The notes under the pieces were generated by a model. It saw nothing but the letters and a program-made list of their open reading frames with translations. It made no database searches and was not told the origin of the DNA. This document shows, piece after piece, positions 9,523 through 40,510 of a stretch of DNA of 40,510 bases. The translations under genes and the position numbers were made by a program. The DNA lies in IMG/VR virus record IMGVR_UViG_3300025112_000051, positions 1 to 40,510 of that record. One strand, 5' to 3'. Every line of letters begins with the position of its first letter. Position 1 is the stretch's first letter. This DNA comes from a virus (Duplodnaviria; Caudoviricetes).

Positions 9523-12500
9523 TCAGCGCATCGGCGGACGCTTGCCCATGTACTCGAAGCGTGGTTCCTCGCCTCGTACTGCCTTCGGTCTGTGTACCTC
9601 GGTTGTCTGCAGTCCACTCAGTCCTCTTGCCCATCTTAGTATCTCACCGGACCAATGTGTGCGCTCCAGCGGAGATATCTCCCACTGCTTTAGCAGCTTG
9701 TTCAGCTCCCCAAGGGGGCTGTTTTCAAGGGCAAAGGACATGATCCCTGGGGAGACGTAGTAGCGCGTGGGCACTACTCCAGCCTCAGCAGGGTCCACTC
9801 CTCGCTTCTCCTCGATCTGCGCCCATATCGGATCTTCGACGCCTTCATACTTGGCCACATCCCAGCCCAGGTAGTCGAGCAAGTCGGCAATATACGGGGT
9901 CACACGCACAGCGCGTCGGGACTCTGGCGACTTCAGCCAGACATCGAGCACCTGCGCAGTGATCGGGCTCCGCTCGGGCTGCACTATCGTGTGCAGTGAG
10001 GCCACTGGGTCGACGGTACCTGCCCAGGCTGGGTTCGCGAGAGGATCGAACTCGTCTGCCATGAGGTTATGGCCAGCCTCAACACCTAACTCAGACATAG
10101 TTATCAGGAACGCGGCGTAGCCTGCGAGATGACGCATCCCTGCATGGATAGTCGACTCAGGCAGCATCACCTCTGTCCACGCATAGTCGGTCTGTGTGGC
10201 GTTGATGTAGTTCATGAAGGCCTGCACCGCCTCCGTGCGTGGCAGAGTCACGGCTGCGCTGGGCCGCTCACGCACCCACCCGCCCTTCGCGGACGGGTCA
10301 GGGAATGGAATCGCGGCAGCCCCCGTCTTCAGGTGAGTCAGTCTGTCAGCCTTCTGGAGGAGGTGGTCCAGCTCGACGTACTTGCCCGCGTAGATGCCCA
10401 TCTGGCGCTCAGCAAACAGCATCCGAAGAGCCAAGCGTGCATCGCGAGGCACCTTGTGAGGACCCTCGTAGTGGTCCTCAACCAGCTTGCGCAGCACGTA
10501 GTAGTTGTCCTGCGCCTCGTCTGGCAGCGCATCCACATCCACTCCGTAGGGCTCTGCGACGAAGTCGTAGAGTATCTGTGTGACTGCCTCGGGCCCAAGC
10601 TCCTCCGCGCGTCGGATGACACCCATGCGATAGGCCACCCTCGGTGAGAGCATGGCGTCGAGTATCTGTCGGTTCGCGTTCTTCTGAAACGCCCAGAAGG
10701 GCATGATGAGGCTGACCCACCAGGCTCGGTCCATCTTCGACATGCTGCCAGCATAGTCATACAGCGCCTTGATGGTGAATCGAGCCGCCTTGCGTGGCGG
10801 ATAACCCATTTCGACAAGGGTGATCATGGCGCCCAGGCGCTCTCGCTCTGCCCAGGTCTCGGCCACATCCTCGGTGAGCTTCAACAGACCTGCACCGACT
10901 CGCCGAGGATCTTGCTTCTTGAACGCAGCAGGCGTGGCTGAGTCAACTGCCTTCTTCAGCTGAGTCGTGTCGAAGCTGGCAAAGATGCCCTCCTCGACAG
11001 CCATCTCTCTCAGACGCCGGTACGAGTAGACCCGGTCGCCGACGCGGATGACGCCCTCGTGTCCCTCCAAGATGGCGTTGACGTCGATACGATACTTAGA
11101 CCCGCTCAGCAGCTGAGACGCCTTGTCACCGTGGCGTTGTAGGGACCGCCGGACCCGCTCAACTGCTTGGGGATTGGCCACTCCCACCTCTTCCAAGGCG
11201 CGGATGAACTGAGCCACACCAGGAATGGTGAGGAAGTTCTGCGCTACCATGCGAGCGGTCGAGGCTGCTGCAGGACGGAACCCCACGATCATCGACATCT
11301 GGTTGAAGTGGTCGAAGGTGTTCATCAAGAAGTAGCGGGGACGAGTGACAAAACCGCCGCGCGTCATCACCTTCTTGATGTAGCGAAGAGTCCAGCCGAA
11401 GATCCCGTGCATCTCTTGCTCAGAGGTGTGTAGCTGGATCTTGGTGCGGATGTCACCAGCACGAGCCAGTGCATCACCCAGCCGCTTCCGCGCCTGCTCG
11501 GGTAGATAGTAAGGCGTGTCGAGGATCTTCTGCTCCAAGAACCGCGGGTTCATCCCGTAGCGCTGCACCACAGCCTGAACCTTCGGTAGCATCTCCAACG
11601 GCACCTGCTCACCGTTGACCCACTTCAGGAATGCCTGCTGCACCTCTTGGTCGACAGCCAAGCCCATCTGCACCCACATCCTGCGTGCAGCATGTGCATG
11701 TCCATGACCTGCGATCAGAAGCGATATGCGGTTCGACTGGGGCTTGCCCCAGACACGCTCGACGTCGCCGAGAACCACGTCGGCCAGATTATACGCGGAG
11801 CCCTCGTAGAGCTTGCCGTCGCGCATTGTCAACCCAGCGAAGTAGGTCAGGACCTCAACTGTCTCATACACCTGGGCTGGCGGCGATACCCGTCGACCAA
11901 GCGCATCAGCCCCAGCCTTTGGCGCGACCTGGAGACCCTCACGAATCCCCACGATGATGTTGTCTTCACCACTGGCATCGTAGATGAGCTTCTGGACAGC
12001 GTCATCGAGCATGGCCTTCGGGAACTCCAGCTCTTTCAGGGGCCCAGTAGCTACCGCCTTGTCGGGCAGCTTAGACAGCGCCTCGCCCATCGATGTACCG
12101 CTCTTACGCGCCTCCTCGACGTAGGCAGCCAGCGCACGCAGAGCCGAGTGCTGCTTCTGCATGGCAGGTGTGTTCAGGGTACGGCTCAGCGAGACTGCGA
12201 CCTCTGTGACCGCGTTGAAGCCACTGGCGTAGGCTTGTCGACCCTGCTTGAACTCGACAATCTCACCACTGAGGAACTTGAGCATCTTGTCACGGTCCAG
12301 CTCACCCAGAATGGTCACCGCGTTGCCGATGGCCTCCTCGACCTTGCGTCCGCCTGCGTTGATCGCCCGTCTGATGGCAGGGGGCAACTCGCGCAGCGCA
12401 CCGTCTGCGTCACCTCCAAGGACGATAGCCTTTGCGAACTGCCCAATGGCGCCCCTCACTCCCTTCTGCTTGTGCACCCAGTTGTCGATGCGCTCAGACG

Positions 12501-15500
12501 CTGTCTCCTCCTTCACAGAGTCAGCCGCTGAGCGGATGGCCAGACCTGGCTCTTGCATCGCCTCAGCCGCCAGCTGACGGTTCTCCAGGTCAGCCTGTAG
12601 ACGCCCCAGCGCTGCACGAGACCATTCCGTCTGGCCCTCCACAGGGGCAGGCAGCACGACCTTGCCAGTGTCATCGAACTGCCGCTGCAGGTCCTCGATG
12701 GTGACCTTCGGCATACCGATACGACGCGCCTCATCTACCAGGAACGCAAACGCCGAGACCGTCTTCTCCCGCTTGACTCCGAGAATCTGGTCACGGATGA
12801 ACTTGTTGACGCGCGGCAGCCCAGCCTCTTGTGTCGGCATGTCCCGCAGCAGTCGGTCGAAGACAGACTTGACCTCGACGGTCATCTTGACATCGATCTC
12901 AGAGCCAGCGATCACCTTGTAGATCTCGACCATCCACTCCTTCAACCGCTCAAACACCTGAGCGAGTCGAGGTACAGGCGCCTGACCCTCTGCGATGTAC
13001 CGCTCGAACGCACGGGCGAATAGCTCCTCTGCCTGTACGATGATGTCGTCACTGGTCGCTGTGAACTTGCCGAAGTCATGACCAACCTCAAGACCGTGCT
13101 GTGTCTTGAGCCAAGACGTGACGATGCCCATGTCGGCATTATCCAGGTCCCGACGGAACAGGTGCCCGATCTCATGGACGATGGACGAGACATCCGCCTT
13201 CTCAAAGGCGTAGATGATGGCGTCACCATCCTCAACGAACTCGATGGCTGCCTTGGCTACGTCCTCATCAAACTGATGCAGGACGCGCGAGTCGGCCTTG
13301 GCCGCGGTCGCTGCCGGGGTCTCGGGGGCGCGGGCACCAACAGCCTCTGATGCCAGTGCGCGGAACTCTTGTGGAGTGATCGTCTCTGCAGGACCTGTGA
13401 CCATGGCTCCAAGGAACTGTTCAGTCTCATCCGACATGCGCACTGCCGCAGCGAGCACGCCCTCTTCTGCATCCAAAGCATCCAGATACTCTGACCATCT
13501 TGCAGCCGCGGCAGCTTCATCTTCAGGCGTTATCTTGATGACATCAGCCAGCGGTGAGCTACGAACTTGATCCGTGTACTTGCTGCGCATGAAGTCGTTG
13601 TATGTCTGACGCGCAACATCCCGACCGAAGATTGCCTTGATCTGGTTGTAGTGGCTTCGTACCAAGTCAGCCAATGCCCGAAGCGCCTGTTGCCATGGCT
13701 TAGCGTATGGAAGGTCTGTGGGGTCAACACCCTTACCTTTGGCGAATAGGCGTCTTGACGCGTCCTGAATCGACAAGTCCTTCATCTTCTCAACGACCCA
13801 CTCGTCAAAAGAAGAGAAGCGATAGGTGCTCTGATTCTTCGCCATGTTGATGTCGATCAACTTACCGGCGCGGTCGAACGCGTCAGGGTTCGTGCGCATG
13901 AACTGACCGCGCTCACGGGCGAACTGCTTGTACAGGTCCTTCACAGTGGAGTCAGGAAGAAACTGACTCAACCCGTGCCACAACTCATGAATCGTCGTGT
14001 CTACAAACCGACCACTGGCAATAGCAGAGTGACTGATACCGACAATGTCGCGGCCGAAGAAGTAGAGCCCCAGGGGCTCATTGAGCATCATGCCTGTGCG
14101 AATCTTCGGCTCAATGGCAAACGCAATGTTCTCAAGACGCTTGGTCCCGACCATCGCGACGAACTCTTTAACAATGCCATATTCATGGTCAGGAATGGTC
14201 GCGATGCCACTATCTGTCTTCCACGCCTTGCCGAGCTTGTCTCGTGTTCTCAACGTCTGACGAAGAATCTGCCCACGACCACGCTTACGGGCAGCGGCTC
14301 TCTCGTACCACTTCAAGGCCTTCTTAGGAGTACCCGCGGGACTCTCGACAAACTTGCCGACATCTGCGGGCTCCGTCACACCCATGGCCGGTCGTGGCGG
14401 GACGGCTTCTACACCCTCAAACAGTCGCTCAAGAGTAATCGACCGATCACCTTCGGCTATGAAGCGCGCATAGTCTTCCTCAGCCCCCGCACCAAACGTG
14501 TCGTAGCCAGCCCCCTTTCGTGGAAGGTCCTGCTTGCGTGCGGGTGTCAGGAATATCTCAAGGTTGGGCGGTGGCGGTGGCGGCGTGCCTTCCGTAGCAG
14601 CCCTGAAAAGAGAGTCCCCGTATCTGCCTATAAGAGTGTTTACGATCATCACGCGGCTGGGGGCTTCATACTTGTACGTAAAGTCGACGCCAGCATCATC
14701 AAGCGTCTTTTGTGACTTCTTCAACTCGCGCCGTATTGAGTCCCACCGGCGTGCCGCACCCGCGGAGACGGGTGAGCCCCCCGCCTTTTCAAGAGTGTCC
14801 ATGAAGCGGCCACTCAAGATGTCATCAACAGTCACCCCTCGGATGCCGTATCTCTGCGCCGCCGCATAGCCATCGATTATCGCTTCTGTTTTAGCCTTGG
14901 TCAGCCAACGTATATCCCAAAACAGCATATATGTAGAACGGGAATCGGTGTGCTCAGTTACCTTAGCCAGTTCATTTGGATTGTCGTACAGATACTTGAG
15001 CAACCGATACTGCTCTGGGGAGGCGCTACCAGCAGCTACATTAGCCAAGGTCTTTTGTAGGCTCTCGGCGTTAGTGTGTGCAAGCCAGTCACCCGACGTG
15101 TAAAGACTCTCAGCACCGTACCCAGTTGCGCTGCGGTACGTCCCAAACAATGTGCCAAACTGCTTTTGGAAGGCGTCATGCGCCTCTTTCGCATCTTCAG
15201 GTAGGTTTTGTATCGAGCGCCTGAGCTTGTCAATACCCTCTGCCTCAGCCTCAGCTGTCAGAGCCTCAACTGCCTGCTTCTGGAACAAGACCTGTGGACC
15301 GCCGACTCGCTCAGCCACCTGCGGCTTCAGGTCTACGAAGGGAACCTCAGCACCATTGGCACTGACACCATCATCGAACCAGGCTTCGCGCAGAGGGGCT
15401 CTCGTGTGCTCCTTCACCACGCTGGGCAGAATGGTGTCGTAGAACTCCTGTGCCGCGTCGAGAGGCATACTGACGACTTTGCTCGCGATTGCGCCAGTAG

Positions 15501-18500
15501 GGAAAGCAATCCCGGCGTAGCCCTCATCAACCGCTATCTGCATGATGCGCTTGACTGCGAGACCGGCCCACGCCTTGGTGTCCTTGAACGGCGCGTCTGG
15601 GATAGCGTTTCTGCCCTGATTCGCCCTCGCATAACGCCGCAGTTCTTCGACCCAAAGAAGAGTGCTTCTATTTGAATAATTGAAACCAGGCACTATGTCA
15701 GCACCTGTACCCTCCATAGTTGCCGTCAGCCTCAGTCCTACTTGGTCGCCCGCGTTAACAACGTCAGCTTGAGCATCTTGCACAGGCGTGCGGTTAATGA
15801 AGCGCCCGTGTTCGGAGACTCGCTTGTTACCCTCTTCATAAAATGCGTAGCGCGCTTTTTCCCACTCAGTGTAGTCATCCCACGCCTTTCGCATGCGCGG
15901 AGGCAATGCATCAATCTTGGCTTGGCGCGCATCTCCTACTACATCATCCAAGGCCAATCTATCTTTGAAAAGGTCATCGTCGTATTGGAGTCGTTGACCC
16001 AACCGGACTGAGTCAGTATGTGGGTGTGCCTTGTGCCAGTCTCGGAGCAACTTTGTCTCTTGCTCAAGGCGGACCAATGCAGCCTCAAATGGCACCAACT
16101 TCTTCTCGGCATCACTGCGGTAGCCACGCTGGCGACCCTTCTGATGCAAGTCGGACTGAATCTCCTCGACGTAGAGGATCTTGCGCCCGTCCTCAGCTAC
16201 ACGGTCGGTAGCACGGATGTGAACCAAGACGTTGGGAGTGTCCCAGTGGGAGCCTTGGGCCTCCGTGAAGGTCTGCGCACGTAGGCCTTCAAACCAGTCA
16301 TCTGAGTCAACATCGGCAGGAACACCGTAGCGAGTATACACCTTGTCCCGAAGCGCTTTGTAGACGTCATGGGCAGCGCTGCCCTCAAAACCGCGCCGGT
16401 AGTTCTTCAGCTTGTCTACATCGGGGTCAGCAAGAATCTCTGGCGCCTTGCTCTTGAAGGTGACCAGCACCTCGCGGTAGTTCTCACCTCCGTCTCCGAG
16501 GGTCCAGTTCTTGAACATAGGCGCTTTAAGGTTCAGTGAATCCTCAAGGTCACCAGCGGCTGCCTCGACTTTCTTCCACTTCACGAACTCAGGGCTGTCT
16601 GCAAGTGCCTTAGTCGTGCGGAACATACCAGGGACGCTTGCTAAGTCCCTAAGCTCGGCGTGCAGCTTGATCGCGTGGCTATACTCATCGAGAATGGCAG
16701 CGGCGCGTTTCGCCGCTTCAAGGTACTCGTCAGGAACGATTACCACATGGTCCGTCGCAGACACCGCCTTCGTCCCTGGAGGGATAAGGCCGCCCACGGT
16801 GGTTGGAGTCTCGTAGTCGAGTACCGTATGCTCGTCAGGAACGCGTACCTCAAAGGCGTCTGGGTCAAGGTGCCGCCCGCGTGCTTCGAGAAAGGATTTA
16901 CTCCGCTCGTACTCGGCCGCAACGTCTGGACTGAGAATATCGTCAGCCAGCTCTTGCGCCATCCGTGGTAGGCGGTCCAGCATCTCTTGCGGTGTACGCC
17001 AAGATCCCGCCAAGGTGCTGGCTATCCCTTCCCTCTGCCAGCCCTCTATGACCTTGCCTATCTCCGCAAACTCCTCCTGGATCGCCTGGGGCACTCGTCG
17101 CGGGGGTAGTCGACGGCTCAGTGGGACAGTCGACCAGCCTGTTGAGGTCCACCGCTTCGACTCGTTGTCAACCTCACGGAGGCGCTCGTAGACATCCCGC
17201 CAGATGTACTCAGGATCTGTCTTGACGCGGTGAACCTCAGTGCCGTCGAAGGGCATCTGATGGTCCTCAGTCATCTTGCGCGCCCACTTCCTGATCCCAT
17301 CCTGTACCGGCTCATACGCCTCGTCAGCCTTTGCTTTGGCTGCCTTGAGCGCAGGCGGCAGCACCCCCATCGAGGTCTCCTCAACCACCACTCGGTTGTT
17401 CTTCAAGTGCCCCAGTAGCTCATCGCGAGTGACCGAGTGCTGCCCTTGTGCCATCAAGTCATCGAGGAACTCTTCGAGGTTGGTCCACTTGATCTCTTCT
17501 TCTTTGGCGCCTACCCTCACAGCTTCGAGCACAACGTCCTTGAGAGACCGCGCAGGTATCTTTACACCCTCGTGGCGATAGGTAAGTCGAGGCTCGCCCG
17601 TCACCGGATCAATGACTGGGTCGCCCACCTTGGCTTCACCGCGCTGAACCGCCTTCGACTTCTTCGTGTAAAGAATCGGGATGGGCTCAGCGACTTCCGT
17701 CACGGCTTCTCCCCGCCTTCGGGCTTTGCGTCGCTTTTTGGCCAAGGCTTTCGACACACTCACGCTTGCTGGTTGCGCCTGGTACACATCATTGAGACCC
17801 TCAACAACCTTCTCCAGCTCGGAGTAGAAGATGGGGTCCTCACCCTTGACCGCGGCCTCTGTCCCAGCTGCTGTCTTCTGGAACAGGATGCGCGGGTCGT
17901 CGGGGTCGAAGGTGCCGACGTTGAGCTTGGACTTGATCTGGGTGGGCTTAAATGCGGCATAGGCAAGCCCAGTATCAGCCGCGTCGACCATGATAAGACC
18001 GTCGTAGCCTCGCATTTCAAGCTGTGGCACCACAGTATTAGCCCATGCGTTTAGCCAACTTTCATCCTTTGTAAGCCTCCAGAAGTACATTTTACTTCCG
18101 ATGCCTGCGTCAATGTCTTTAGCGGCCTTGATAATCCGATCAACGAGGCGCCTACCTTCCTTTGTCATGTGGGCAGCGCCAAACTCAGGGTCGATATCAG
18201 CGATGATGCGATACGCGCTGGTGTCTCTCAGGTCCAATGGGTTTTTCAGCGACAGGTAACCTTCAGTCACAAAGTTCTTAGCGACATCATCCAGTACACC
18301 CAGTTCAACAGCTTCCTCCCACCCCGCCTCAGTTCGTGTGTCGACGCCGAGGCGACTAAGGCTGTAGTTCTCAGCCGTGCCTCGCCTTGGTGTAAACCAG
18401 AAGAGCCCACCCGCCTTTTCATGCCGAAACTCTTCGAGATTTGGAGTGTCACTCCCATGGTAAACAACCAACGGCTCACCCGCTTCATCGACCACCTTGG

Positions 18501-21500
18501 ACGCGCCAAACCAGTTCTTGAAGAACCGACTCTCAAGCGGGCTACGGTCTTCACTCAGGATCTTCTCATAAATCTCGCGAGCTTCAGCAATCTCGTCAGC
18601 CGATGTGGCACCAGCCGCTGCGGCGTCTACCTCATCAGCTTGGAGCAGAAGCCTCTCAGGACCTACCCTTTCTGCAGCTGCTCTCGCACGCGCTCCAAAT
18701 GTTCGTTCAACCCCCGGTCGAGGTCGAAGGTCTGCGTCTCCGGGTTCCAATCGGAAGGTGTGCTCGATGCCGTATCCTTCAAGAACTGCAGGTACTCGCT
18801 GTTGGAACTCTTCGCTGTAGAGTTCTGCCCACTTGTAGTCGAGGTCTTTTCCGACATACTTCTCTCCTTGTGCACTCAGCTCATGTATGCGCTCAGACGC
18901 GCGCCTGGCAGAGCCGTCAACGGCTGCCTTGACTGCGTCTTTGTACTCACGAGATCGTTGACGTACTGCCGCAGGGATGTTGCCCCACGACCCATACTTC
19001 TCCAGTAGGACAGCGTCTGACAGCTCGCCAAAGCCATCGGGCACGTCCAGTATCCACACGCCGCCGTCTGGGCGCGTTGCGCGCATCTGACGAGCATCGA
19101 GGCGAGTGCCATAGATGACATCGGCGCCAGACAGCGCACTGCCGTTGGGGTGGTTGTGCGTGAACCCAAGACCAGGCGCCTTCATCATGCGCTGGGTCTC
19201 TGCGGTGGTGAACGACACGTAGTTGGGTGCATTCGAGGTCGCTCGGATGACGTGTACACCATCTTCGGTGTGCGCCATGGCGTACTCGACACCGAGACGA
19301 CGGATGGCATCCTCAGCAACCGACAACGGCTGACCCAGCAGCAGCGGGCCGACACGAGTGGCGCTCTTGTCGAAGTCGGACTTGGTGATCTTGCCCGCCG
19401 CTACCAGCTTGTCGATGGCGGCTGCTGCAGCATCCACGGGGTCTGCTGCGGCTCCCAATACCTTGTCAGCCTCATCTACCGCTTCCCACTTACCTTCGGC
19501 CTTACGAAGCTCAATCCCCTCGGGTAGCGATGCCCGCGCTACTGCCTCATGGTCGTAGTCAAGCGCGTCGCCCCGCCGAATGTGGCGCTCAGCAAACTCT
19601 TCCATGCCGGCAATCTGAGTGCGCCAACCCGGCCAGTCAGCCGGCGCTGCGCTGTTCTCTATCGCCCACGCACGCGCACGAGCATCCATCAAAGCAGACA
19701 AAGCCTGTGCGCGCTCGCGAGAGATCCCCTGGGTTGCCTTGAGTAGCGCCTTGGTAAACAGACGTGCCTCTGCCGAGAGGTCAGGCACCTTCATCGCCTC
19801 TTTTATGCTTGCCCTGATCTGGAGCGGAGGCGGCTCGATCTTCGCCAGCCCATAGAGTTCCTCGCGCAGCAGCAGAGACGCTGCTGCCCGTGACTCGTTG
19901 TTCATCTTGACTGCTTCCTCAGTGCGGTCGAGCGCCTTGAGCCACTCGGCAGTCTTGCCCGCTTGGCCCTTGATCAGCTTCGGCGCGGCTGCAAGTGACT
20001 TATGCACGACCGCACGAGCCTTGTTGATCTCCTTCAGCCTCGCTACCTCATCGACGGCGCCGGCTGCTTCTGCCGCAGCCAGCTCAGCCTTGATGCTGGG
20101 CAGTGTGCTCAGCTTGTACATCTCTGCGCCTTCACCCTCAACCCACTTCGCTTTCCACGCTCCTGGGTTCTTGATCAGCTCAAGGAGGCTCTCAGGGGCA
20201 AAGGCGGCCTCAATGAGCTGGCGCACCTCCAGTGCTCCGTCATCTCCAGCAGCACGGCCAGCGGCCACGATTGCGCTTTGCTTCGGCTTGACCAGGTCAC
20301 CCTGTATGAGAGGCATGTCGATGTAGTCACCAGCCTCTATGGCTCGGCGTTCCTGCGCAATCCGATCCAGATGACGCTGCGTGCCGTACAGCTCAGCGTA
20401 GTCACCCGCGATGGTCTGGCTGGTCTTCTCGCCCTTTACCCGAGGACGCAGCAGATCCTTGCGCACGCTGGCGTGGAGGTTGAGCTTTGAGTCGCGCAGG
20501 TCACCCGGCAGCTGATTGGACAGCCGAACGCTGAAGATGTCTGGGTTCGCATTCGCCAGGTTGCCTGCTACCTGTGCATCCTTGATGTCCAAGTTGTCGG
20601 CTATACGACCGTGGTTGCTGCGCAGCGCCGACTCAGCAGCAGCGGCTTCGCCATGACCCGCAACACCGCCCGTTGCGCGACCGATTGCCGCGTCAGCCGT
20701 AATCGCACCGATGCGGCGTGCCCGACTGGCGTGAATGGGCCTCGCGGCGAGCTTCGCCGCACCAGCTGCGCCAAGCAGCACGTCGGGGAACAGCACTGCC
20801 GCGCCGAAGCCGGCCAGACCAGCAGCAATGCGCGCGGCGGTACCCATACCCTCAGTCGCCTCTATTGAGGCTGTGAAGAAGTCCTTGCGCTCTGCAATGC
20901 CCTTCACTGCGCTGTAGCTGTCCAGCTCCCCATGGTACAGGTCGCTCGCGATGCCCACTGCAATCGCCTGCGGCACATCAAACATCTCGAAGGCGTAGGA
21001 GAGACCGCTTTGCTGCCGCAGCACTGCCTTGTTGTCCGCGTTGATACCAACGACCTCGACGGTGGGCATCATCGCCTGAGCGAGGCTGACCTCCTTCTCA
21101 TTCAGCGAGGCGTATGGCAGGAAGGTTGCACCAGTCCACGCACCAACGGTCTTGGCCAGCGCCATCTTGTACACAGACTGCTGACGGTACGCATTGCGTC
21201 GACGCTCCCGCTCCTTGCCGCTCAGCGTGTCCCACTCTAAGTCGCGGTTGATCAGCGCCTCGGTGTAGTCCTCTACGAACTCGTAGCCAGAGACCAGCTT
21301 GTTCTTGTTCAAGTCGACAAGATGAGCCAGGTCGGAGTCACCCTCAACGGCCTCCTCCCATATCTCAAACGCCGTCCGACCGGCGATCCCCTCACCGGGC
21401 TTGACGACCTCTTTCGCTTCAGCTGGGTCTGACTGGAACCACGCACGCTCCTCTGACCAGACATACCCCTTGTTCTGAGGTTCACGCAGCCACGCGGGTA

Positions 21501-22128
21501 TGTCCTCTCCACGCTCCTCATAGCGCTCGACAGCCTTCTTCCGCACCATCTCTCGCTGAGTCGCCAACTCCCGCGCCTTCGGCCCAGCAAACTCGGACAC
21601 ACCACGCTTCTTTGCTTCCTCGATGACCTCAGTAGGATCCCGACCGCGCCGCCCGACCTCCTTGATCATGTAGTCGATGTCGACACCACGCGCCTTGACG
21701 GCTGCCTTGAACTCGTTGGGCTGCAGCCCCAACTCCCGGCTGTGGAAGATGACCACCTCGGGGATGGATCGCGGAGCCGTGATACCCGGCTGCGGCCTCT
21801 CCTCTGGGCGCTCTATCTGCCGCTCGTATGCGGCCTTCAGCTTGTCGAGAAACTCCTCCACCTTGGTGTCAGGGGGCCCAGGGGGCCCAGGTGTCTCAAG
21901 GGTAGGCGCCTTGGGTAGTGGCGCTACCTCTACCGGCTCAGGTGCCGATGGCGGCATGAACTGTGGCGCCGCTATACGTGGGGCAGTGGGTATCTCGGCT
22001 CTGCCCACGACACCGAATACACCCTGCTGCTCAAGCTCATCCGCCTTTGTACGAGCCTCTTCAGCCGACATGCCTCTCGCAAGGCGACGTTCGATGTACT
22101 GCTGCTTTTCTTCGGCGGGAGTGGCCAC
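9523..22128 (-). CDS. Giant polyvalent internal virion/ejection protein (4201 aa)
   Basis: Last gene of the ejection block. Contains JAMM motif (E...HNHP...SGAD), ART-PolyVal-like segment (FKNWFGASKVVD...VVYHGS...PTQIKS), EEIQSD/DAPF domain, two HExxH zincin motifs (HELWH aa 2714, HEIGH aa 2985) and a helical C-terminus (MPFWAFQKN) typical of large ejection proteins. Confidence 0.8.
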   Translation of the reverse strand: MATPAEEKQQYIERRLARGMSAEEARTKADELEQQGVFGVVGRAEIPTAPRIAAPQFMPPSAPEPVEVAPLPKAPTLETPGPPGPPDTKVEEFLDKLKAAYERQIERPEERPQPGITAPRSIPEVVIFHSRELGLQPNEFKAAVKARGVDIDYMIKEVGRRGRDPTEVIEEAKKRGVSEFAGPKARELATQREMVRKKAVERYEERGEDIPAWLREPQNKGYVWSEERAWFQSDPAEAKEVVKPGEGIAGRTAFEIWEEAVEGDSDLAHLVDLNKNKLVSGYEFVEDYTEALINRDLEWDTLSGKERERRRNAYRQQSVYKMALAKTVGAWTGATFLPYASLNEKEVSLAQAMMPTVEVVGINADNKAVLRQQSGLSYAFEMFDVPQAIAVGIASDLYHGELDSYSAVKGIAERKDFFTASIEATEGMGTAARIAAGLAGFGAAVLFPDVLLGAAGAAKLAARPIHASRARRIGAITADAAIGRATGGVAGHGEAAAAESALRSNHGRIADNLDIKDAQVAGNLANANPDIFSVRLSNQLPGDLRDSKLNLHASVRKDLLRPRVKGEKTSQTIAGDYAELYGTQRHLDRIAQERRAIEAGDYIDMPLIQGDLVKPKQSAIVAAGRAAGDDGALEVRQLIEAAFAPESLLELIKNPGAWKAKWVEGEGAEMYKLSTLPSIKAELAAAEAAGAVDEVARLKEINKARAVVHKSLAAAPKLIKGQAGKTAEWLKALDRTEEAVKMNNESRAAASLLLREELYGLAKIEPPPLQIRASIKEAMKVPDLSAEARLFTKALLKATQGISRERAQALSALMDARARAWAIENSAAPADWPGWRTQIAGMEEFAERHIRRGDALDYDHEAVARASLPEGIELRKAEGKWEAVDEADKVLGAAADPVDAAAAAIDKLVAAGKITKSDFDKSATRVGPLLLGQPLSVAEDAIRRLGVEYAMAHTEDGVHVIRATSNAPNYVSFTTAETQRMMKAPGLGFTHNHPNGSALSGADVIYGTRLDARQMRATRPDGGVWILDVPDGFGELSDAVLLEKYGSWGNIPAAVRQRSREYKDAVKAAVDGSARRASERIHELSAQGEKYVGKDLDYKWAELYSEEFQQRVPAVLEGYGIEHTFRLEPGDADLRPRPGVERTFGARARAAAERVGPERLLLQADEVDAAAAGATSADEIAEAREIYEKILSEDRSPLESRFFKNWFGASKVVDEAGEPLVVYHGSDTPNLEEFRHEKAGGLFWFTPRRGTAENYSLSRLGVDTRTEAGWEEAVELGVLDDVAKNFVTEGYLSLKNPLDLRDTSAYRIIADIDPEFGAAHMTKEGRRLVDRIIKAAKDIDAGIGSKMYFWRLTKDESWLNAWANTVVPQLEMRGYDGLIMVDAADTGLAYAAFKPTQIKSKLNVGTFDPDDPRILFQKTAAGTEAAVKGEDPIFYSELEKVVEGLNDVYQAQPASVSVSKALAKKRRKARRRGEAVTEVAEPIPILYTKKSKAVQRGEAKVGDPVIDPVTGEPRLTYRHEGVKIPARSLKDVVLEAVRVGAKEEEIKWTNLEEFLDDLMAQGQHSVTRDELLGHLKNNRVVVEETSMGVLPPALKAAKAKADEAYEPVQDGIRKWARKMTEDHQMPFDGTEVHRVKTDPEYIWRDVYERLREVDNESKRWTSTGWSTVPLSRRLPPRRVPQAIQEEFAEIGKVIEGWQREGIASTLAGSWRTPQEMLDRLPRMAQELADDILSPDVAAEYERSKSFLEARGRHLDPDAFEVRVPDEHTVLDYETPTTVGGLIPPGTKAVSATDHVVIVPDEYLEAAKRAAAILDEYSHAIKLHAELRDLASVPGMFRTTKALADSPEFVKWKKVEAAAGDLEDSLNLKAPMFKNWTLGDGGENYREVLVTFKSKAPEILADPDVDKLKNYRRGFEGSAAHDVYKALRDKVYTRYGVPADVDSDDWFEGLRAQTFTEAQGSHWDTPNVLVHIRATDRVAEDGRKILYVEEIQSDLHQKGRQRGYRSDAEKKLVPFEAALVRLEQETKLLRDWHKAHPHTDSVRLGQRLQYDDDLFKDRLALDDVVGDARQAKIDALPPRMRKAWDDYTEWEKARYAFYEEGNKRVSEHGRFINRTPVQDAQADVVNAGDQVGLRLTATMEGTGADIVPGFNYSNRSTLLWVEELRRYARANQGRNAIPDAPFKDTKAWAGLAVKRIMQIAVDEGYAGIAFPTGAIASKVVSMPLDAAQEFYDTILPSVVKEHTRAPLREAWFDDGVSANGAEVPFVDLKPQVAERVGGPQVLFQKQAVEALTAEAEAEGIDKLRRSIQNLPEDAKEAHDAFQKQFGTLFGTYRSATGYGAESLYTSGDWLAHTNAESLQKTLANVAAGSASPEQYRLLKYLYDNPNELAKVTEHTDSRSTYMLFWDIRWLTKAKTEAIIDGYAAAQRYGIRGVTVDDILSGRFMDTLEKAGGSPVSAGAARRWDSIRRELKKSQKTLDDAGVDFTYKYEAPSRVMIVNTLIGRYGDSLFRAATEGTPPPPPPNLEIFLTPARKQDLPRKGAGYDTFGAGAEEDYARFIAEGDRSITLERLFEGVEAVPPRPAMGVTEPADVGKFVESPAGTPKKALKWYERAAARKRGRGQILRQTLRTRDKLGKAWKTDSGIATIPDHEYGIVKEFVAMVGTKRLENIAFAIEPKIRTGMMLNEPLGLYFFGRDIVGISHSAIASGRFVDTTIHELWHGLSQFLPDSTVKDLYKQFARERGQFMRTNPDAFDRAGKLIDINMAKNQSTYRFSSFDEWVVEKMKDLSIQDASRRLFAKGKGVDPTDLPYAKPWQQALRALADLVRSHYNQIKAIFGRDVARQTYNDFMRSKYTDQVRSSPLADVIKITPEDEAAAAARWSEYLDALDAEEGVLAAAVRMSDETEQFLGAMVTGPAETITPQEFRALASEAVGARAPETPAATAAKADSRVLHQFDEDVAKAAIEFVEDGDAIIYAFEKADVSSIVHEIGHLFRRDLDNADMGIVTSWLKTQHGLEVGHDFGKFTATSDDIIVQAEELFARAFERYIAEGQAPVPRLAQVFERLKEWMVEIYKVIAGSEIDVKMTVEVKSVFDRLLRDMPTQEAGLPRVNKFIRDQILGVKREKTVSAFAFLVDEARRIGMPKVTIEDLQRQFDDTGKVVLPAPVEGQTEWSRAALGRLQADLENRQLAAEAMQEPGLAIRSAADSVKEETASERIDNWVHKQKGVRGAIGQFAKAIVLGGDADGALRELPPAIRRAINAGGRKVEEAIGNAVTILGELDRDKMLKFLSGEIVEFKQGRQAYASGFNAVTEVAVSLSRTLNTPAMQKQHSALRALAAYVEEARKSGTSMGEALSKLPDKAVATGPLKELEFPKAMLDDAVQKLIYDASGEDNIIVGIREGLQVAPKAGADALGRRVSPPAQVYETVEVLTYFAGLTMRDGKLYEGSAYNLADVVLGDVERVWGKPQSNRISLLIAGHGHAHAARRMWVQMGLAVDQEVQQAFLKWVNGEQVPLEMLPKVQAVVQRYGMNPRFLEQKILDTPYYLPEQARKRLGDALARAGDIRTKIQLHTSEQEMHGIFGWTLRYIKKVMTRGGFVTRPRYFLMNTFDHFNQMSMIVGFRPAAASTARMVAQNFLTIPGVAQFIRALEEVGVANPQAVERVRRSLQRHGDKASQLLSGSKYRIDVNAILEGHEGVIRVGDRVYSYRRLREMAVEEGIFASFDTTQLKKAVDSATPAAFKKQDPRRVGAGLLKLTEDVAETWAERERLGAMITLVEMGYPPRKAARFTIKALYDYAGSMSKMDRAWWVSLIMPFWAFQKNANRQILDAMLSPRVAYRMGVIRRAEELGPEAVTQILYDFVAEPYGVDVDALPDEAQDNYYVLRKLVEDHYEGPHKVPRDARLALRMLFAERQMGIYAGKYVELDHLLQKADRLTHLKTGAAAIPFPDPSAKGGWVRERPSAAVTLPRTEAVQAFMNYINATQTDYAWTEVMLPESTIHAGMRHLAGYAAFLITMSELGVEAGHNLMADEFDPLANPAWAGTVDPVASLHTIVQPERSPITAQVLDVWLKSPESRRAVRVTPYIADLLDYLGWDVAKYEGVEDPIWAQIEEKRGVDPAEAGVVPTRYYVSPGIMSFALENSPLGELNKLLKQWEISPLERTHWSGEILRWARGLSGLQTTEVHRPKAVRGEEPRFEYMGKRPPMR

Positions 22129-37089: not shown

Positions 37090-38754
37090 ATGCCAGCACG
37101 CGCCAACCGGCAGCCGTCGCATCCGCTCATTCTTCCCAGCGGCGCCACGCTCGCCCGTGCTGATAATCTCGACATGCGCAAGGTGCGCGCGATGTTCGCC
37201 ACACCCGCCGCCTTTGTCAGCATGTGCCAGATCGTCAGGGAAGACGAGTCTATCGGGTATCTGAACCCCACACCGACGCAGCAACGCCTCATCGAGGCGT
37301 ACCACAGCCACCGCTGGCTGCTGGTCGACAAGTTCAGGCAGGCCAAGATCACGACCATCAGCGTCATGCTGCTGCTTCGCGACTGCCAGTACCTCGCAGG
37401 CGTGAAGGGGCTGCTCATCGCAGAGCGCCAGGACACCGCCGAGGACATCTTCGAGCGCATCCTGTTTGCCTACCGACGCTTGCCCAAGGCTGTTCAGATG
37501 CCCTTGGCCCCCGGCAGAAAGGCAGGCTCGACCCAGATGCACTTCTGTCACGGTGGCGGCATCAAGGTGCTGACGGCAGGCGGGCGCAGCCCAGCAATCG
37601 GTCGCAGCATCGACCGCCTGGTCATCACAGAGTTCGGTGAGGCCCAGTGGCAGCGCAAGGCAGCCATCAACATCTTCCCCACGGTGAACAAGCGCCCCAA
37701 CGCGCGCATCATCTTGGAGAGCACACCTGGCCGAGCAGGTAGCCATCACGAGCAGATGTGGCACTCGGCGCTCGAAGGCAAGAGCCGCTTCCACCCGTTG
37801 TTCCTCAAGTGGTGGAAAGACGAGTCGTGCGGCATCGACATCGGCGGCGACTTCAAGCTCACCGAGGAGGAGCGCGAGTATCGGACGCGTCACACGGACA
37901 TGACGCTCAACAACATGGCGTTCCGACGCTCAGCGTTGAACACCGAGTTCGTGGGGGATGAACGGCTGTTCAGCAGCAAGTACCCCTCAGACCCCTACGA
38001 TGGTTGGCTGGGTGCCTACGCCCCCATCATGCCCATCGACGTGCTCAAGCCGATGCTCGCCCACGCAATCGCAGACCCGTCGATGGGTCGATACGGTGCC
38101 CGCGAGATCGAGCCGCCCAGGACGGGCGCCAAGTACATCATCACCGCTGACCCAGCTGGGTTTGGTGGCACAGGTGACAAGAGCGCGCTCACCATTTGGG
38201 ACGCCGTCCAGCGCAAGGAGGTCGCCTTCTGGGAGGACCGCGAGGACCCCACGCGCTTCGCCTCGCGACTGATGAACCTCCAGACGCGCTACAACAACGC
38301 GCTGCTGGTGGTAGAGTCCAATGCCATGGCCTGTATCGCCGTGCTCAAGGACAGCAGCTGCCGCAACCTGTTGTGGACCGACAGGCGGCATCCAGGCTGG
38401 TACGCCACCGAGAAGCGCATCCAAGAAGCTGAGGCGCGCCTGGTCAAGCTGCTCCGCGACGGAGACCTCACAGTGCGCTCGCGCGGAACGCTCCATCAGC
38501 TGGTCAACTACGACGGCAGCCGAAAGAAGCGCGTCAGGGGCCTTGATGGCATCATGCACCACTTCGACCGCGCACGCACAGTCATCATGGCTGCTGACGT
38601 GTTGTCCCGCCGCAGCTTCACCGAGACTGCTCTGGAGGAGCACATCGGCTACCAAGCTGGACAGGTTACAATCAATGACCTCGACAAGCTCAGCAGCCGC
38701 AAGCGTGCTGAAGCTCGTAGCCCCTTCAAGCCACCTCCGCGCTCATGGAGCTGA
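37090..38754 (+). CDS. terL: Terminase large subunit
   Basis: Walker A-type KFRQAKITT, Walker B LVITE, coupling motif ESTP, FLKWW, RNase H-like nuclease motifs TADPAG..D, VVESN and HFD. Confidence 0.9.
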   Translation: MPARANRQPSHPLILPSGATLARADNLDMRKVRAMFATPAAFVSMCQIVREDESIGYLNPTPTQQRLIEAYHSHRWLLVDKFRQAKITTISVMLLLRDCQYLAGVKGLLIAERQDTAEDIFERILFAYRRLPKAVQMPLAPGRKAGSTQMHFCHGGGIKVLTAGGRSPAIGRSIDRLVITEFGEAQWQRKAAINIFPTVNKRPNARIILESTPGRAGSHHEQMWHSALEGKSRFHPLFLKWWKDESCGIDIGGDFKLTEEEREYRTRHTDMTLNNMAFRRSALNTEFVGDERLFSSKYPSDPYDGWLGAYAPIMPIDVLKPMLAHAIADPSMGRYGAREIEPPRTGAKYIITADPAGFGGTGDKSALTIWDAVQRKEVAFWEDREDPTRFASRLMNLQTRYNNALLVVESNAMACIAVLKDSSCRNLLWTDRRHPGWYATEKRIQEAEARLVKLLRDGDLTVRSRGTLHQLVNYDGSRKKRVRGLDGIMHHFDRARTVIMAADVLSRRSFTETALEEHIGYQAGQVTINDLDKLSSRKRAEARSPFKPPPRSWS

Positions 38755-38755
38755 G

Positions 38756-39181
38756 ATGCCTACATACGAAGAGTTGATAGAAGCAAAGCGCAGAGAGGCG
38801 CGGTTGGGCGAGAGCCCCCAGAGCGAGTCTCAAGCGGAAAAACGTCAGAGATTCATAGAGCATGTGCACAAGTTGCAAACCGAAAACCCGGACACGCTTC
38901 GAGAACGCTACGGCCTGACGCCCGACGAGTCCGACTGGCTACAGAGGTTCGGTGACATGGAAGATCGATTGTACCGACGAATCGTCGGTGGCGAGCAACA
39001 AAGTCCGTGGGATGAGGGAACCCGCGGAGCGCGCGGGGTCGTTGCAGGCGACCCCACTGCAGGGGCCCAACAGAAACGCGCCGAAGCCCTCAAAACCGGG
39101 CTGGCTGCGAAGAGTAAGCGCACCAAGCCCACAACCAAAGCAGAATCGTCAACGTACCGGGCTGGCCCCGAAGCCGAGTAA
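38756..39181 (+). CDS. Hypothetical charged protein between terL and portal
   Basis: ATG 38756 with GGAG upstream; 141 aa helical/basic; fills the gap exactly. Confidence 0.6.
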   Translation: MPTYEELIEAKRREARLGESPQSESQAEKRQRFIEHVHKLQTENPDTLRERYGLTPDESDWLQRFGDMEDRLYRRIVGGEQQSPWDEGTRGARGVVAGDPTAGAQQKRAEALKTGLAAKSKRTKPTTKAESSTYRAGPEAE

Positions 39182-39187
39182 CTACCA

Positions 39188-40510
39188 ATGCCCAAGCTCA
39201 GCTCTCTCATCGAGCGCCACCTCAAGTACTACCAAGCCAACGAGAAGAAGTCGTTCGACAAGGCTCGACGCTTCTACCGCGGCGCATTCTGGTCGCTACA
39301 GGACTCCACGTTCACCGACACCGACAGCATGTCGAAGTCGCTGCTGTGCTCCAAAAACCTCATCTATGCCATCGCAGACACCGCCATCAGCGCGCTGCTT
39401 GGGCCCAACCCGCAGGTCGGCGCCAACCCGCGAAGTGAAGCCGCCCAAGAGGTCGCCCCAGCCGTCAACGGTCTGATGGAGTGGACGTTCAAGTCCAACA
39501 AGATGAGGCGCCGAGCCGCCACCGCACTCATCGACGCAGTCCTCTGCAAGCGGGGCGTCTTCAAGACGGGCTGGGATGTTCTCAACGACCGCCCCAAGAT
39601 CACCGTCGTGGACCCGACCAACCTGTTCTTCGACCTCACCGTCAGAGACGTGGACGACATCCGCTACTGGCTGGAGGCCACAGTCATCCCCTGGGACGAG
39701 TTCAAGAACCGCGTCAAGTCGGGACAGTACACCGGTAAGAACCTCGATGACATCCGCTCCGACCGCTACCCCAAGTGGATGCTGGGCGACACCGCACGCG
39801 CCAACTCCGACTCGGTCAGAGACGCGTTCAAGTGGGTCACGGTCTGGGAGTACTACAACCGCGAGAGCGGCAAGATGCAGCACTACATCAAGCAGGCTGA
39901 CACCATCGTCTTCGAGGACCAGATCGACTACGTCCCCTACAGCATGTTCAGCCTGAACCAGTCAGGCATAGACTGCGCTGGACTCAGCGAGGTGCAGCTG
40001 GTGCTGAACCAGCAAGAGACGGTCAACGACCTGCTCACGCACTGGAAGCAGATCACCTACCTGATGATCCCACGCATCCTCTACGATGCTGGCCGCATCA
40101 GTGAGGAGGACCTCAACAAGGCAGTCGAGTCGTCTACCGGCTCATTCGTCGGTATCGCACCCGAGAACAGCGAAGCGCTGCGCACCCTGGCGACTCTCTT
40201 CTACGAGATGCCGATGCCCATGGCGCCTACGGGCGTCAAGGAGTTCATCATGCGCCAGGAAGACGATGCAGCGTTCGTCAGCGCCCTCGCTGAGGCTGCC
40301 CGCGGTCAGGTCACCGGGGCCCGCACCGCCACCGAGATGGCGATCATCGACGCCCAGATGCGCACGCGCCTGGCCACGCGCGAGGGGCACATCAACGACG
40401 CGCTCGAAGACGTAGCCGCCAAGGCCTTCTACCTCAGCCGCAAGTACATGTCTGAGCCCAAGATGGTACGCGTGGCGGGTGGGCGTAAGTGGGCGACCGT
40501 CTCGCTGGAC
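39188..40510 (+). CDS. Portal protein (P22-like), 3'-truncated; not in the ORF track
   Basis: Open frame from ATG 39188 to the window end: MPKLSSLIERH...RFYRGAFW...NLIYAIADT...NPQV...DAVLCKRGVFKTGWD...VDPTNLFFD...RTATEMAII. Confidence 0.85.
   Translation, partial: MPKLSSLIERHLKYYQANEKKSFDKARRFYRGAFWSLQDSTFTDTDSMSKSLLCSKNLIYAIADTAISALLGPNPQVGANPRSEAAQEVAPAVNGLMEWTFKSNKMRRRAATALIDAVLCKRGVFKTGWDVLNDRPKITVVDPTNLFFDLTVRDVDDIRYWLEATVIPWDEFKNRVKSGQYTGKNLDDIRSDRYPKWMLGDTARANSDSVRDAFKWVTVWEYYNRESGKMQHYIKQADTIVFEDQIDYVPYSMFSLNQSGIDCAGLSEVQLVLNQQETVNDLLTHWKQITYLMIPRILYDAGRISEEDLNKAVESSTGSFVGIAPENSEALRTLATLFYEMPMPMAPTGVKEFIMRQEDDAAFVSALAEAARGQVTGARTATEMAIIDAQMRTRLATREGHINDALEDVAAKAFYLSRKYMSEPKMVRVAGGRKWATVSLD

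What the first reader, a model, noticed from the sequence alone, without database searches (positions are those of the whole stretch)
13162..19356. Giant virion protein looks like a self-cleaving polyprotein with effector cassettes bounded by a repeated [VIL]-L-x-Q motif
Seen: six similar motifs sit at the module junctions of the 4201-aa protein: TRVGPLLLGQ (Q933, nt 19332), ERVGPERLLLQ (Q1163, 18642), DPRILFQ (Q1417, 17880), ERVGGPQVLFQ (Q2283, 15282), RGQILRQ (Q2624, 14259) and DSRVLHQ (Q2952, 13275). Three are preceded by RVG(G)P. They delimit a JAB module, an ART-like module, the EEIQSD module, an unknown module and a first HExxH module; the last lies 33 aa before the ADVSSIVHEIGH zincin. 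Established: polyvalent phage proteins combine zincin peptidases with anti-host effectors and are proposed to be delivered with the DNA. Inference: L-x-Q is the recognition site of the cis-encoded zincin, which releases separate effectors in the head or after injection, like a viral polyprotein.
Basis: partly seen in the sequence, partly recalled or inferred. Interest (0 to 1): 0.9.

Follow-up and report, generated by a model that had tools for sequence, protein, structure and literature searches.

The report
Phage polyprotein's likely self-cutting signal
A 4,201-residue phage protein is a chain of swappable modules that end in the same short Leu-x-Gln tag, and relatives whose built-in zinc-protease domain has lost its active site have also lost the tag, so the tag likely marks where the protein cuts itself into separate enzymes, although no cut has been observed.

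Summary
The six motifs are present as stated (8 [VIL]LxQ in all, 2.4 expected). Four are conserved cassette ends (Q1163, Q1417, Q2283, Q2952). Q933 lies inside the JAB-like unit; Q2624 is undecided; RVG(G)P is not part of the general signal.

The protein is a polyvalent, probably ejected, virion protein with an intact zincin (H2985-E2986-H2989, E3035). The new evidence is comparative. Among 118 relatives sharing the backbone, [LMF]xQ precedes the peptidase in 52 of 54 with intact HExxH but 8 of 64 whose domain keeps its fold residues yet lacks the active site. Distal cassette ends follow suit (21 of 26 against 0 of 8). ART cassettes end in Q with this peptidase clade and in other tags elsewhere, largely regardless of ART ancestry. 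AlphaFold places the proximal motif as a strand next to the peptidase's first strand.

Self-processing of polyvalent proteins was proposed in 2017; I found no recognition site in print. The scan noted similar tags, with other letters, on other genomes. Cleavage, the bond cut and the timing are untested. The clade has about 12,800 clusters and includes cultured phages, so it is testable.

The parts
9523..22128 (-). Giant polyvalent protein, 4201 aa (GTG start; first ATG at 22071), last large gene of the virion block
   Evidence: homologues sit after the internal-virion and transglycosylase genes in AF and BPP-1
19564..22128 (-). N-terminal backbone (aa 1-about 855), shared with relatives; no L-x-Q at its end here, though P0002, P0197 and P0198 have one
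19330..19341 (-). LLGQ (Q933): inside the JAB-like unit, probably not a junction
   Evidence: Q in 3 of 14 homologues, M or H in 11
18640..19548 (-). JAB-like cassette (aa about 861-1163; HNHPNGSALSGAD, label from a recalled motif)
   Evidence: no family model matched
18640..18651 (-). LLLQ (Q1163): conserved end of the JAB-like cassette
   Evidence: 12 of 13 homologous ends keep Q, 6 of them seeds; low-confidence segment in model
17878..18639 (-). ART-PolyVal cassette (aa 1164-1417; ART fold core about aa 1199-1403)
17878..17889 (-). ILFQ (Q1417): conserved end of the ART cassette, followed by a low-confidence linker
   Evidence: (218 of 431 alignment ends within 12 aa)
15280..17877 (-). EIQSD cassette (aa 1418-2283), function unknown
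   Evidence: no family match
15280..15291 (-). VLFQ (Q2283): conserved end of the EIQSD cassette
14257..15279 (-). Unknown module (aa 2284-2624), one homologue (P0263)
14257..14268 (-). ILRQ (Q2624): possible junction, undecided
   Evidence: identical in P0263; the next module occurs without the preceding one in P0226
13273..14256 (-). Second, cargo-type zincin module (HELWH at aa 2714-2718, nt 13975-13989)
13273..13284 (-). VLHQ (Q2952): peptidase-proximal motif, family-wide
12844..13272 (-). Zincin-like metallopeptidase (aa 2953-about 3095): HEIGH at nt 13162-13176, likely third zinc ligand E3035 (nt 13024-13026)
9526..12738 (-). C-terminal backbone (aa 3131-4201), used to define the family

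Best explanation
This is a phage polyvalent protein, likely packed in the head and ejected, whose swappable cassettes end in an h-L-x-Q tag that is likely the recognition site of its own C-proximal zinc peptidase, which would cut the chain into separate pieces. Shown: four of the six tags are conserved cassette ends; the peptidase has H2985, E2986, H2989 and E3035; tag and active site are lost together in relatives. Predicted: the proximal tag forms a strand beside the peptidase's first strand, as a substrate would (inferred from secondary structure only). Inferred: cutting frees the ART, EIQSD and other cassettes (about 28, 97 and 37+37 kDa) from an N-terminal piece carrying the JAB-like unit (126 kDa) and a C-terminal peptidase-backbone piece (140 kDa), most likely on or after ejection. 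The exact bond within L-x-Q and the timing are unknown.
For: Natural knockouts: [LMF]xQ within 30 aa of the peptidase in 52 of 54 intact against 8 of 64 dead copies; stricter pattern 46 of 54 against 3 of 64, background 4.3%. The active state changes 11 times on the backbone tree; of 9 independent pairs about 5 go the same way and 0 the other way. Dead copies keep fold residues (W3006, F3022, A3033, E3034, F3037, Y3044) but lose K2959, D2979, T/S2982, HExxH, E3035 and E3042. Distal cassette ends: 21 of 26 Q in active (9 of 14 without the seeds), 0 of 8 in dead or absent. Distal L[FY]Q 31 against 8.4 expected in active, 5 against 8.0 in dead. ART-selected set: Q end in 27 of 31 clusters with this peptidase against 5 of 62 without. 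On the ART tree Q changes 36 times (shuffled mean 44) but follows the peptidase in 8.1 of 9 pairs, p about 0.008. EIQSD ends F-Q in 16 of 17 active against 0 of 7 others. Held-out 148 proteins: 8 of 8 distal ART ends Q; upstream [LF][FY]Q 161 against 55, downstream 32 against 50. Codons vary (CAG 43, CAA 27). Models.
Against: No cleavage data exist for this clade in what I searched. N4 virion RNAP, ArdC and TraC1 carry MPTases yet are packaged or transferred uncut (PMC5512222, section read). Exceptions with intact HExxH: P0223 (ART ends ILAS, ILKA), P0284 (FLFA), P0230 (ILYH), P0303 (no proximal tag), L025 (ILES), P0162 (ILRA), P0003 (JAB end), and 10 of 80 IMG/VR loci lack the proximal tag. 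P0241 keeps LKQ with HGxxH. The pair test on the backbone tree is borderline (median p 0.03 loose, 0.06 strict) and rests on a FastTree tree with long-branch warnings. Tags also exist in proteins with no HExxH found. Q933 fails and Q2624 is unproven. Fold matches to solved zincins are weak (Z 4-5).
Confidence: 0.72

Rival explanations
1. The tag binds the peptidase's active-site cleft without being cut: a latch or autoinhibitory strand that keeps the peptidase quiet, or tethers cassettes during packaging, while the peptidase acts on a host target.
For: The model shows the proximal tag as a well-predicted strand next to the domain (pLDDT about 86). Co-loss with the active site fits binding as well as cutting. 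Other MPTase proteins travel uncut (PMC5512222).
Against: One active site needs one latch, yet tags up to about 1800 aa away are kept and enriched only in active copies. Each sits at a cassette end before a linker.
Confidence: 0.13
2. Only the proximal site is cut, releasing the whole upstream part; distal tags are leftovers that travel with cassettes because cassettes are swapped at that conserved end.
For: Any cassette can occupy the proximal slot. Most exceptions in active proteins that were examined are distal or transitional (P0223, P0284, P0003).
Against: Distal tags are Q in 8 of 8 held-out ART ends and in up to three ART copies per protein, decay in dead lineages (0 of 8), and have no DNA-level repeat.
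Confidence: 0.09
3. A different protease (host, phage head protease, or the cargo HELWH zincin) cuts the tag, and the link to the proximal peptidase is a lineage correlate.
For: Other lineages carry uniform tags without a recognisable zincin in the same chain (ITES, IRK-, IxFS). A second HExxH domain is present here.
Against: Losses are nested among close sisters (P0274 and P0289 inside an active clade; P0209, P0084). 34 of 64 dead copies have another upstream HExxH and still lose Q. No head protease was recognised in the window and the capsid protein has no such tag, though the genome may be incomplete.
Confidence: 0.05
4. Chance matches or a DNA recombination site.
For: The pattern is short (2.4 expected) and Q933, Q372 and Q4148 are probably chance.
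Against: Family-wide conservation and co-variation; synonymous codon variety; no repeat family joining the sites, only one 24-nt pair at 79% coding LFQK.
Confidence: 0.01

Closest known systems
Phage-type polyvalent proteins with zincin-like MPTase (Iyer et al. 2017, PMC5512222; Peptidases section and passages read)
   Same: Giant multidomain protein in the virion block with ART-PolyVal and MPTase domains; self-processing and the analogy to RNA-virus polyproteins are proposed there.
   Different: The main text I searched names no recognition site ('linker' 0 hits; 'cleavage site' only in a reference title) and no link between site and peptidase clade or activity. Its FTP supplements were not seen.
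Third ejection proteins of Bordetella phage BPP-1 (Bbp10), Pseudomonas phage AF (gp16), Cobetia phage Carin1 (gp32), Caulobacter phage JessA (gp39)
   Same: Same peptidase clade with the proximal tag (KFYQ, LLNQ, AYNQ, LLAQ) and similar gene position.
   Different: Shorter, with fewer cassettes; annotated as hypothetical, crystallin-like or lysis proteins; I found no processing data.
crAss-like phage gp65-gp67 fusion with zincin (bioRxiv 10.1101/2020.03.07.982082, passages)
   Same: A fused virion polyprotein 'likely cleaved' with a zincin nearby.
   Different: Cargo is an RNA polymerase; cleavage and site left open in the passages read.
Phage P1 DdrB and N4 virion RNAP (as described in PMC5512222)
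   Same: MPTase-bearing head proteins; DdrB is reported processed.
   Different: N4 RNAP is packaged uncut; neither was tested here for membership of this clade.
Picornavirus-type polyproteins cut by 3C proteases at Gln (recalled)
   Same: One chain, one embedded protease, a repeated Gln-containing site at domain ends.
   Different: Cysteine proteases of RNA viruses; analogy only.
Cyanophage A4 gp27 (PDB 9K3A; PMC12002296, passages) and anti-CRISPR structure 6KYF
   Same: Best fold matches to the ART cassette (Z 7.5 to gp27 residues 1418-1600; E 9e-3 to 6KYF): an ART-like fold inside a solved pre-ejectosome.
   Different: gp27 has no HExxH and no match to this peptidase; the matches are of middling strength.

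Membership tests
Polyvalent proteins (phage type) | Several biochemically unrelated domains, including family hallmark domains, in one chain | tested here: met
   ART-PolyVal 58.9 bits against cut-off 31.2; two HExxH domains; cassettes reordered in relatives
Polyvalent proteins (phage type) | Encoded with virion morphogenesis genes | tested here: met
   Same strand and block as major head and virion structural genes; homologues follow internal-virion genes
Polyvalent proteins (phage type) | Packaged in the head and injected | not testable with these tools
   Uncultured phage; inferred from gene position
Zincin-like MPTase | HExxH helix plus Glu on a following helix | tested here: met
   H2985, E2986, H2989 and E3035 in 54 of 54 intact copies; helices 54-66 and 101-121 in the model
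Zincin-like MPTase | Three-stranded sheet and fold match to solved zincins | tested here: inconclusive
   Strands predicted; PPEP-2, PprI and ArdC appear at Z 3.9-4.9 among unrelated rows; no significant sequence or Foldseek hit
Zincin-like MPTase | Zinc-dependent proteolytic activity | not testable with these tools
   Needs an assay
Self-processing viral polyprotein | Repeated consensus site at domain boundaries | tested here: met
   4 of 6 named sites are conserved cassette ends; Q933 is not, Q2624 undecided
Self-processing viral polyprotein | Site depends on the protease in the same chain | tested here: met
   Comparative only: co-loss and co-variation
Self-processing viral polyprotein | Cleavage demonstrated | not testable with these tools
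   No proteomics or assay available
ART-PolyVal (PF18760) | Profile match above cut-off and ART fold | tested here: met
   fold like tankyrase and MbcT catalytic domains, Z about 7
JAB/RadC domain | HxH..S..D metal site and profile match | tested here: inconclusive
   Motif visible (label recalled); no Pfam or NCBIfam hit

The most novel reading that the evidence does not exclude
Polyvalent phage proteins are true self-processing polyproteins with a protease code. Each peptidase clade imposes its own tag on the end of every cassette it carries: L-x-Q here, I-R-F/Y-S or F-S-R and others elsewhere. A cassette moving between lineages rewrites its tail, and lineages that kill the peptidase let the tag decay or switch to a second zincin. 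This would be a very widespread dsDNA-phage way to deliver several counter-defence enzymes from one ejected chain, and a new family of sequence-specific metalloproteases.
Probability: 0.45. Interest if true: 0.88.

Novelty: new variant of a known kind. Interest (0 to 1): 0.74.

Why it matters
Since 2017 it has been an open proposal that the peptidases in polyvalent phage proteins release the effectors; no site was named in the texts I searched. A defined tag with natural loss-of-function controls says where to look and which residue to mutate, in cultured phages (Carin1, AF, JessA). The tag also gives cassette boundaries for thousands of unannotated giant proteins (12,772 clusters at 50% identity match the peptidase profile), which makes single candidate anti-defence effectors expressible. 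It also points to a possible new sequence-specific protease.

Tried and rejected
Direct locus search with the window's peptidase found nothing; the alignment-based search worked. An automated test of Q conservation from all Q-containing windows was swamped by Q residues inside domains and did not separate active from dead distal sites (86 of 294 against 30 of 105); I replaced it by cassette-specific profiles, whose seeds were chosen for having Q, so seed-free counts are given too; P0224 was dropped there because its alignment stopped 25 columns short. P0226 was first scored active through its cargo HExxH and was removed. A DNA repeat or recombination site was rejected. RVG(G)P as part of the signal and Q933 as a seam were rejected. 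No solved relative by sequence or Foldseek. No look-alike for the unknown module; the Atlas did not complete for the EIQSD cassette. The complex predictor was not available, so peptidase-peptide binding was not modelled. A test of whether non-Q tags match head-protease sites in cultured phages was inconclusive (Tunturi_5, Dfl-JY45, F116, USP_18). An IQ-TREE rerun returned no answer, so trees are FastTree only. Ten paper searches found no report of this tag; subscription papers and bioRxiv supplements are not covered.
Full report
Observation. The window is most of a phage genome with terminase and a portal-like gene on the + strand and a head-to-tail block on the - strand. The last large gene of that block, 9523-22128, encodes 4201 aa. 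[VIL]LxQ occurs 8 times against 2.4 by shuffling (p about 0.003, pattern chosen after the fact), the two extra at Q372 and Q4148. Pfam finds only ART-PolyVal, aa 1214-1402, between Q1163 and Q1417.

Which motifs are junctions. I collected full-length relatives three ways: by the peptidase (78 proteins), by the ART cassette (best 120 of 2810) and by the C-terminal backbone (best 120 of 136), plus 111 IMG/VR loci. The closest relative, P0002, has the same backbone with cassettes in another order, joined at VLFRQ, MMFQ, LMFQ and ILEQ. Q1417 is the conserved ART end (218 of 431 alignment ends fall within 12 aa). Q2283 is the EIQSD-cassette end and Q1163 the JAB-like unit's end (DIFFQ, DIQFQ, DLLLQ, EVFFQ). 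Q2952 is family-wide: any cassette can sit in front of the peptidase and ends in the tag 26-48 aa before HExxH. Q933 fails: RVGPhhhG opens the JAB-like unit and is followed by Q in 3 of 14 homologues, M or H in 11. Q2624 is shared only with P0263. RVG(G)P is not general. In the AlphaFold model of aa 1144-1455 the ART fold core spans about aa 1199-1403, Q1417 lies at the confident edge before a linker under pLDDT 50, and Q1163 lies in another low-confidence segment. The sites share no DNA repeat and their codons vary.

The tag follows the peptidase. Among 142 proteins picked by ART alone (93 clusters), ART ends in Q in 27 of 31 clusters with this peptidase clade and 5 of 62 without; other lineages use their own uniform ends such as IRFS, IRYS, ITES, IRK- or ITRS. 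Two of the four exceptions have a dead peptidase (P0084, L002/L003). A second cassette agrees: EIQSD ends in F-Q in 16 of 17 cases with the active peptidase (the odd one is a pattern mis-hit), F-S or F-R in 6 of 6 without, F-A in 1 dead. On a tree of 134 ART domains the Q state changes 36 times (shuffled mean 44, minimum 34), while it follows the peptidase in 8.1 of 9 independent pairs and never opposes it (p about 0.008; the tree is short and weakly supported). In 148 held-out proteins from the profile search, all 25 ART ends are Q (8 distal), and [LF][FY]Q is enriched upstream of the peptidase (161 against 55) but not downstream (32 against 50); proximal counts there are biased because the profile included the tag.

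Natural knockouts. In the backbone family 64 of 118 scored proteins have lost HExxH (P0217 lacks the domain and P0226 was removed). They keep fold residues but lose K2959, D2979, T/S2982, H2985, E2986, H2989, E3035 and E3042. The proximal [LMF]xQ is present in 52 of 54 intact and 8 of 64 dead copies; a stricter pattern gives 46 of 54 and 3 of 64 against a 4.3% background. The active state changes 11 times on the tree; pair tests give about 5 of 9 the same way, none opposite, p 0.03-0.06. Matched distal ends are Q in 21 of 26 active cases (9 of 14 without seeds) and 0 of 8 dead or absent ones (IQMS, ILRA, ILYS, FLYS). P0274 and P0289 are dead inside an active clade and read MFKT and FFKA where sisters read LRQ or LKQ. 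Against: P0223, P0284, P0230, P0303, P0003, L025 and P0162 break the rule with an intact HExxH, P0241 keeps the tag with HGxxH, and 10 of 80 active loci lack the proximal tag.

Structure. The model of aa 2927-3110 (mean pLDDT 81.6) has the HExxH helix, a second helix with E3035, and VLHQFD as a strand joined by a two-residue turn to the peptidase's first strand. Zincin substrates bind as an extra strand on the edge strand (established knowledge, recalled), so this fits a substrate pose; I had secondary structure only, no coordinates, so pose and scissile bond are inferred. Fold matches to solved zincins are weak (Z 4-5). Binding of a distal site was not modelled.

Mechanism. Most likely (0.72) the chain is packed as an ejection protein and its own peptidase cuts at the tags, freeing the ART, EIQSD and further cassettes. 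Timing is open; on or after ejection fits the uncut packaging of other MPTase proteins. Rivals: a non-cleaved latch (0.13), a single proximal cut with hitch-hiking distal tags (0.09), another protease (0.05).

What is known. Iyer et al. 2017 (PMC5512222; Peptidases section and searched passages) propose autoproteolytic release and the polyprotein analogy, cite P1 DdrB as processed and N4 RNAP, ArdC and TraC1 as unprocessed, and give no site in the main text; their FTP supplements were not seen. The crAss-like RNAP preprint (passages) calls the fused form likely cleaved. The phi24B preprint (passages) finds its polyvalent gp47 in virions and suggests the metallopeptidase degrades peptidoglycan. 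PMC9503650, PMC9024508 and PMC12002296 (passages) add context only. Ten searches found no report of the tag. Four earlier notes of this scan describe similar tags with other letters on other genomes; I did not check them. Cultured members exist: BPP-1 Bbp10, AF gp16, Carin1 gp32 and JessA gp39 all carry the proximal tag.

Verdict. A known kind of protein with a new, well-supported but untested processing signal: new variant of a known kind, interest 0.74.

Noticed in passing
P0081, P0091, P0092, P0107, P0127, P0152: Proteins with up to about ten ART copies end each copy in a uniform tag (ITES, IRK-, IxFS, ITNH), often followed by a WDExxHPRxxxGRF-like or HDxKGRF-like stretch; several have no HExxH. 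These may be head-protease sites plus head-targeting signals (ITE resembles the recalled T4 gp21 site).
   Followed up: partly
L117:19530-26693 (Dolichospermum phage Dfl-JY45, XAI97106.1): Carries an HExxxH-type zincin, and both ART and EIQSD cassettes end in F-S/A/Y-R; P0102, P0134, P0159 and L021 with the same zincin type end in xFSR, xFHR or xFRP. A second clade-specific tag.
   Followed up: partly
P0084, P0125, P0221, P0222, P0233, P0236, P0254: Relatives with a dead main peptidase share another zincin (SE..hhHE[IL]LH) and mostly S-type ends (IQMS, VTQS, ILRS, VQRS): drift, or takeover by a second protease.
   Followed up: no
P0312, P0314-P0318: Proteins with two copies of this peptidase; in several only one copy has a clear upstream Q tag.
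   Followed up: no
L020: One 5089-aa protein holds this peptidase preceded by VFFQ and, 2000 aa later, an ART ending IQYS before a different zincin: two tags and two peptidases in one chain.
   Followed up: partly
window 37090-40510 (+) against 9073-36408 (-): Terminase and a 441+-aa portal-like ORF (39188-end; label by position and size, no family scan) run opposite to the capsid and tail block; the window ends inside that ORF, so the genome is probably incomplete.
   Followed up: no
window 15280-17877: The EIQSD cassette is widespread in giant phage proteins, sometimes twice per chain, with no Pfam or NCBIfam match; its function is unknown.
   Followed up: partly
window 17878-18639: The ART cassette model's best Foldseek rows are cyanophage A4 ejection protein gp27 (residues 1418-1600; no ART mentioned in the passages of PMC12002296 I searched) and the anti-CRISPR structure 6KYF.
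   Followed up: partly
window 13273-19548: Cassettes have lower GC3 (0.58-0.65) than the backbone and peptidase (0.70-0.73), consistent with later acquisition.
   Followed up: no
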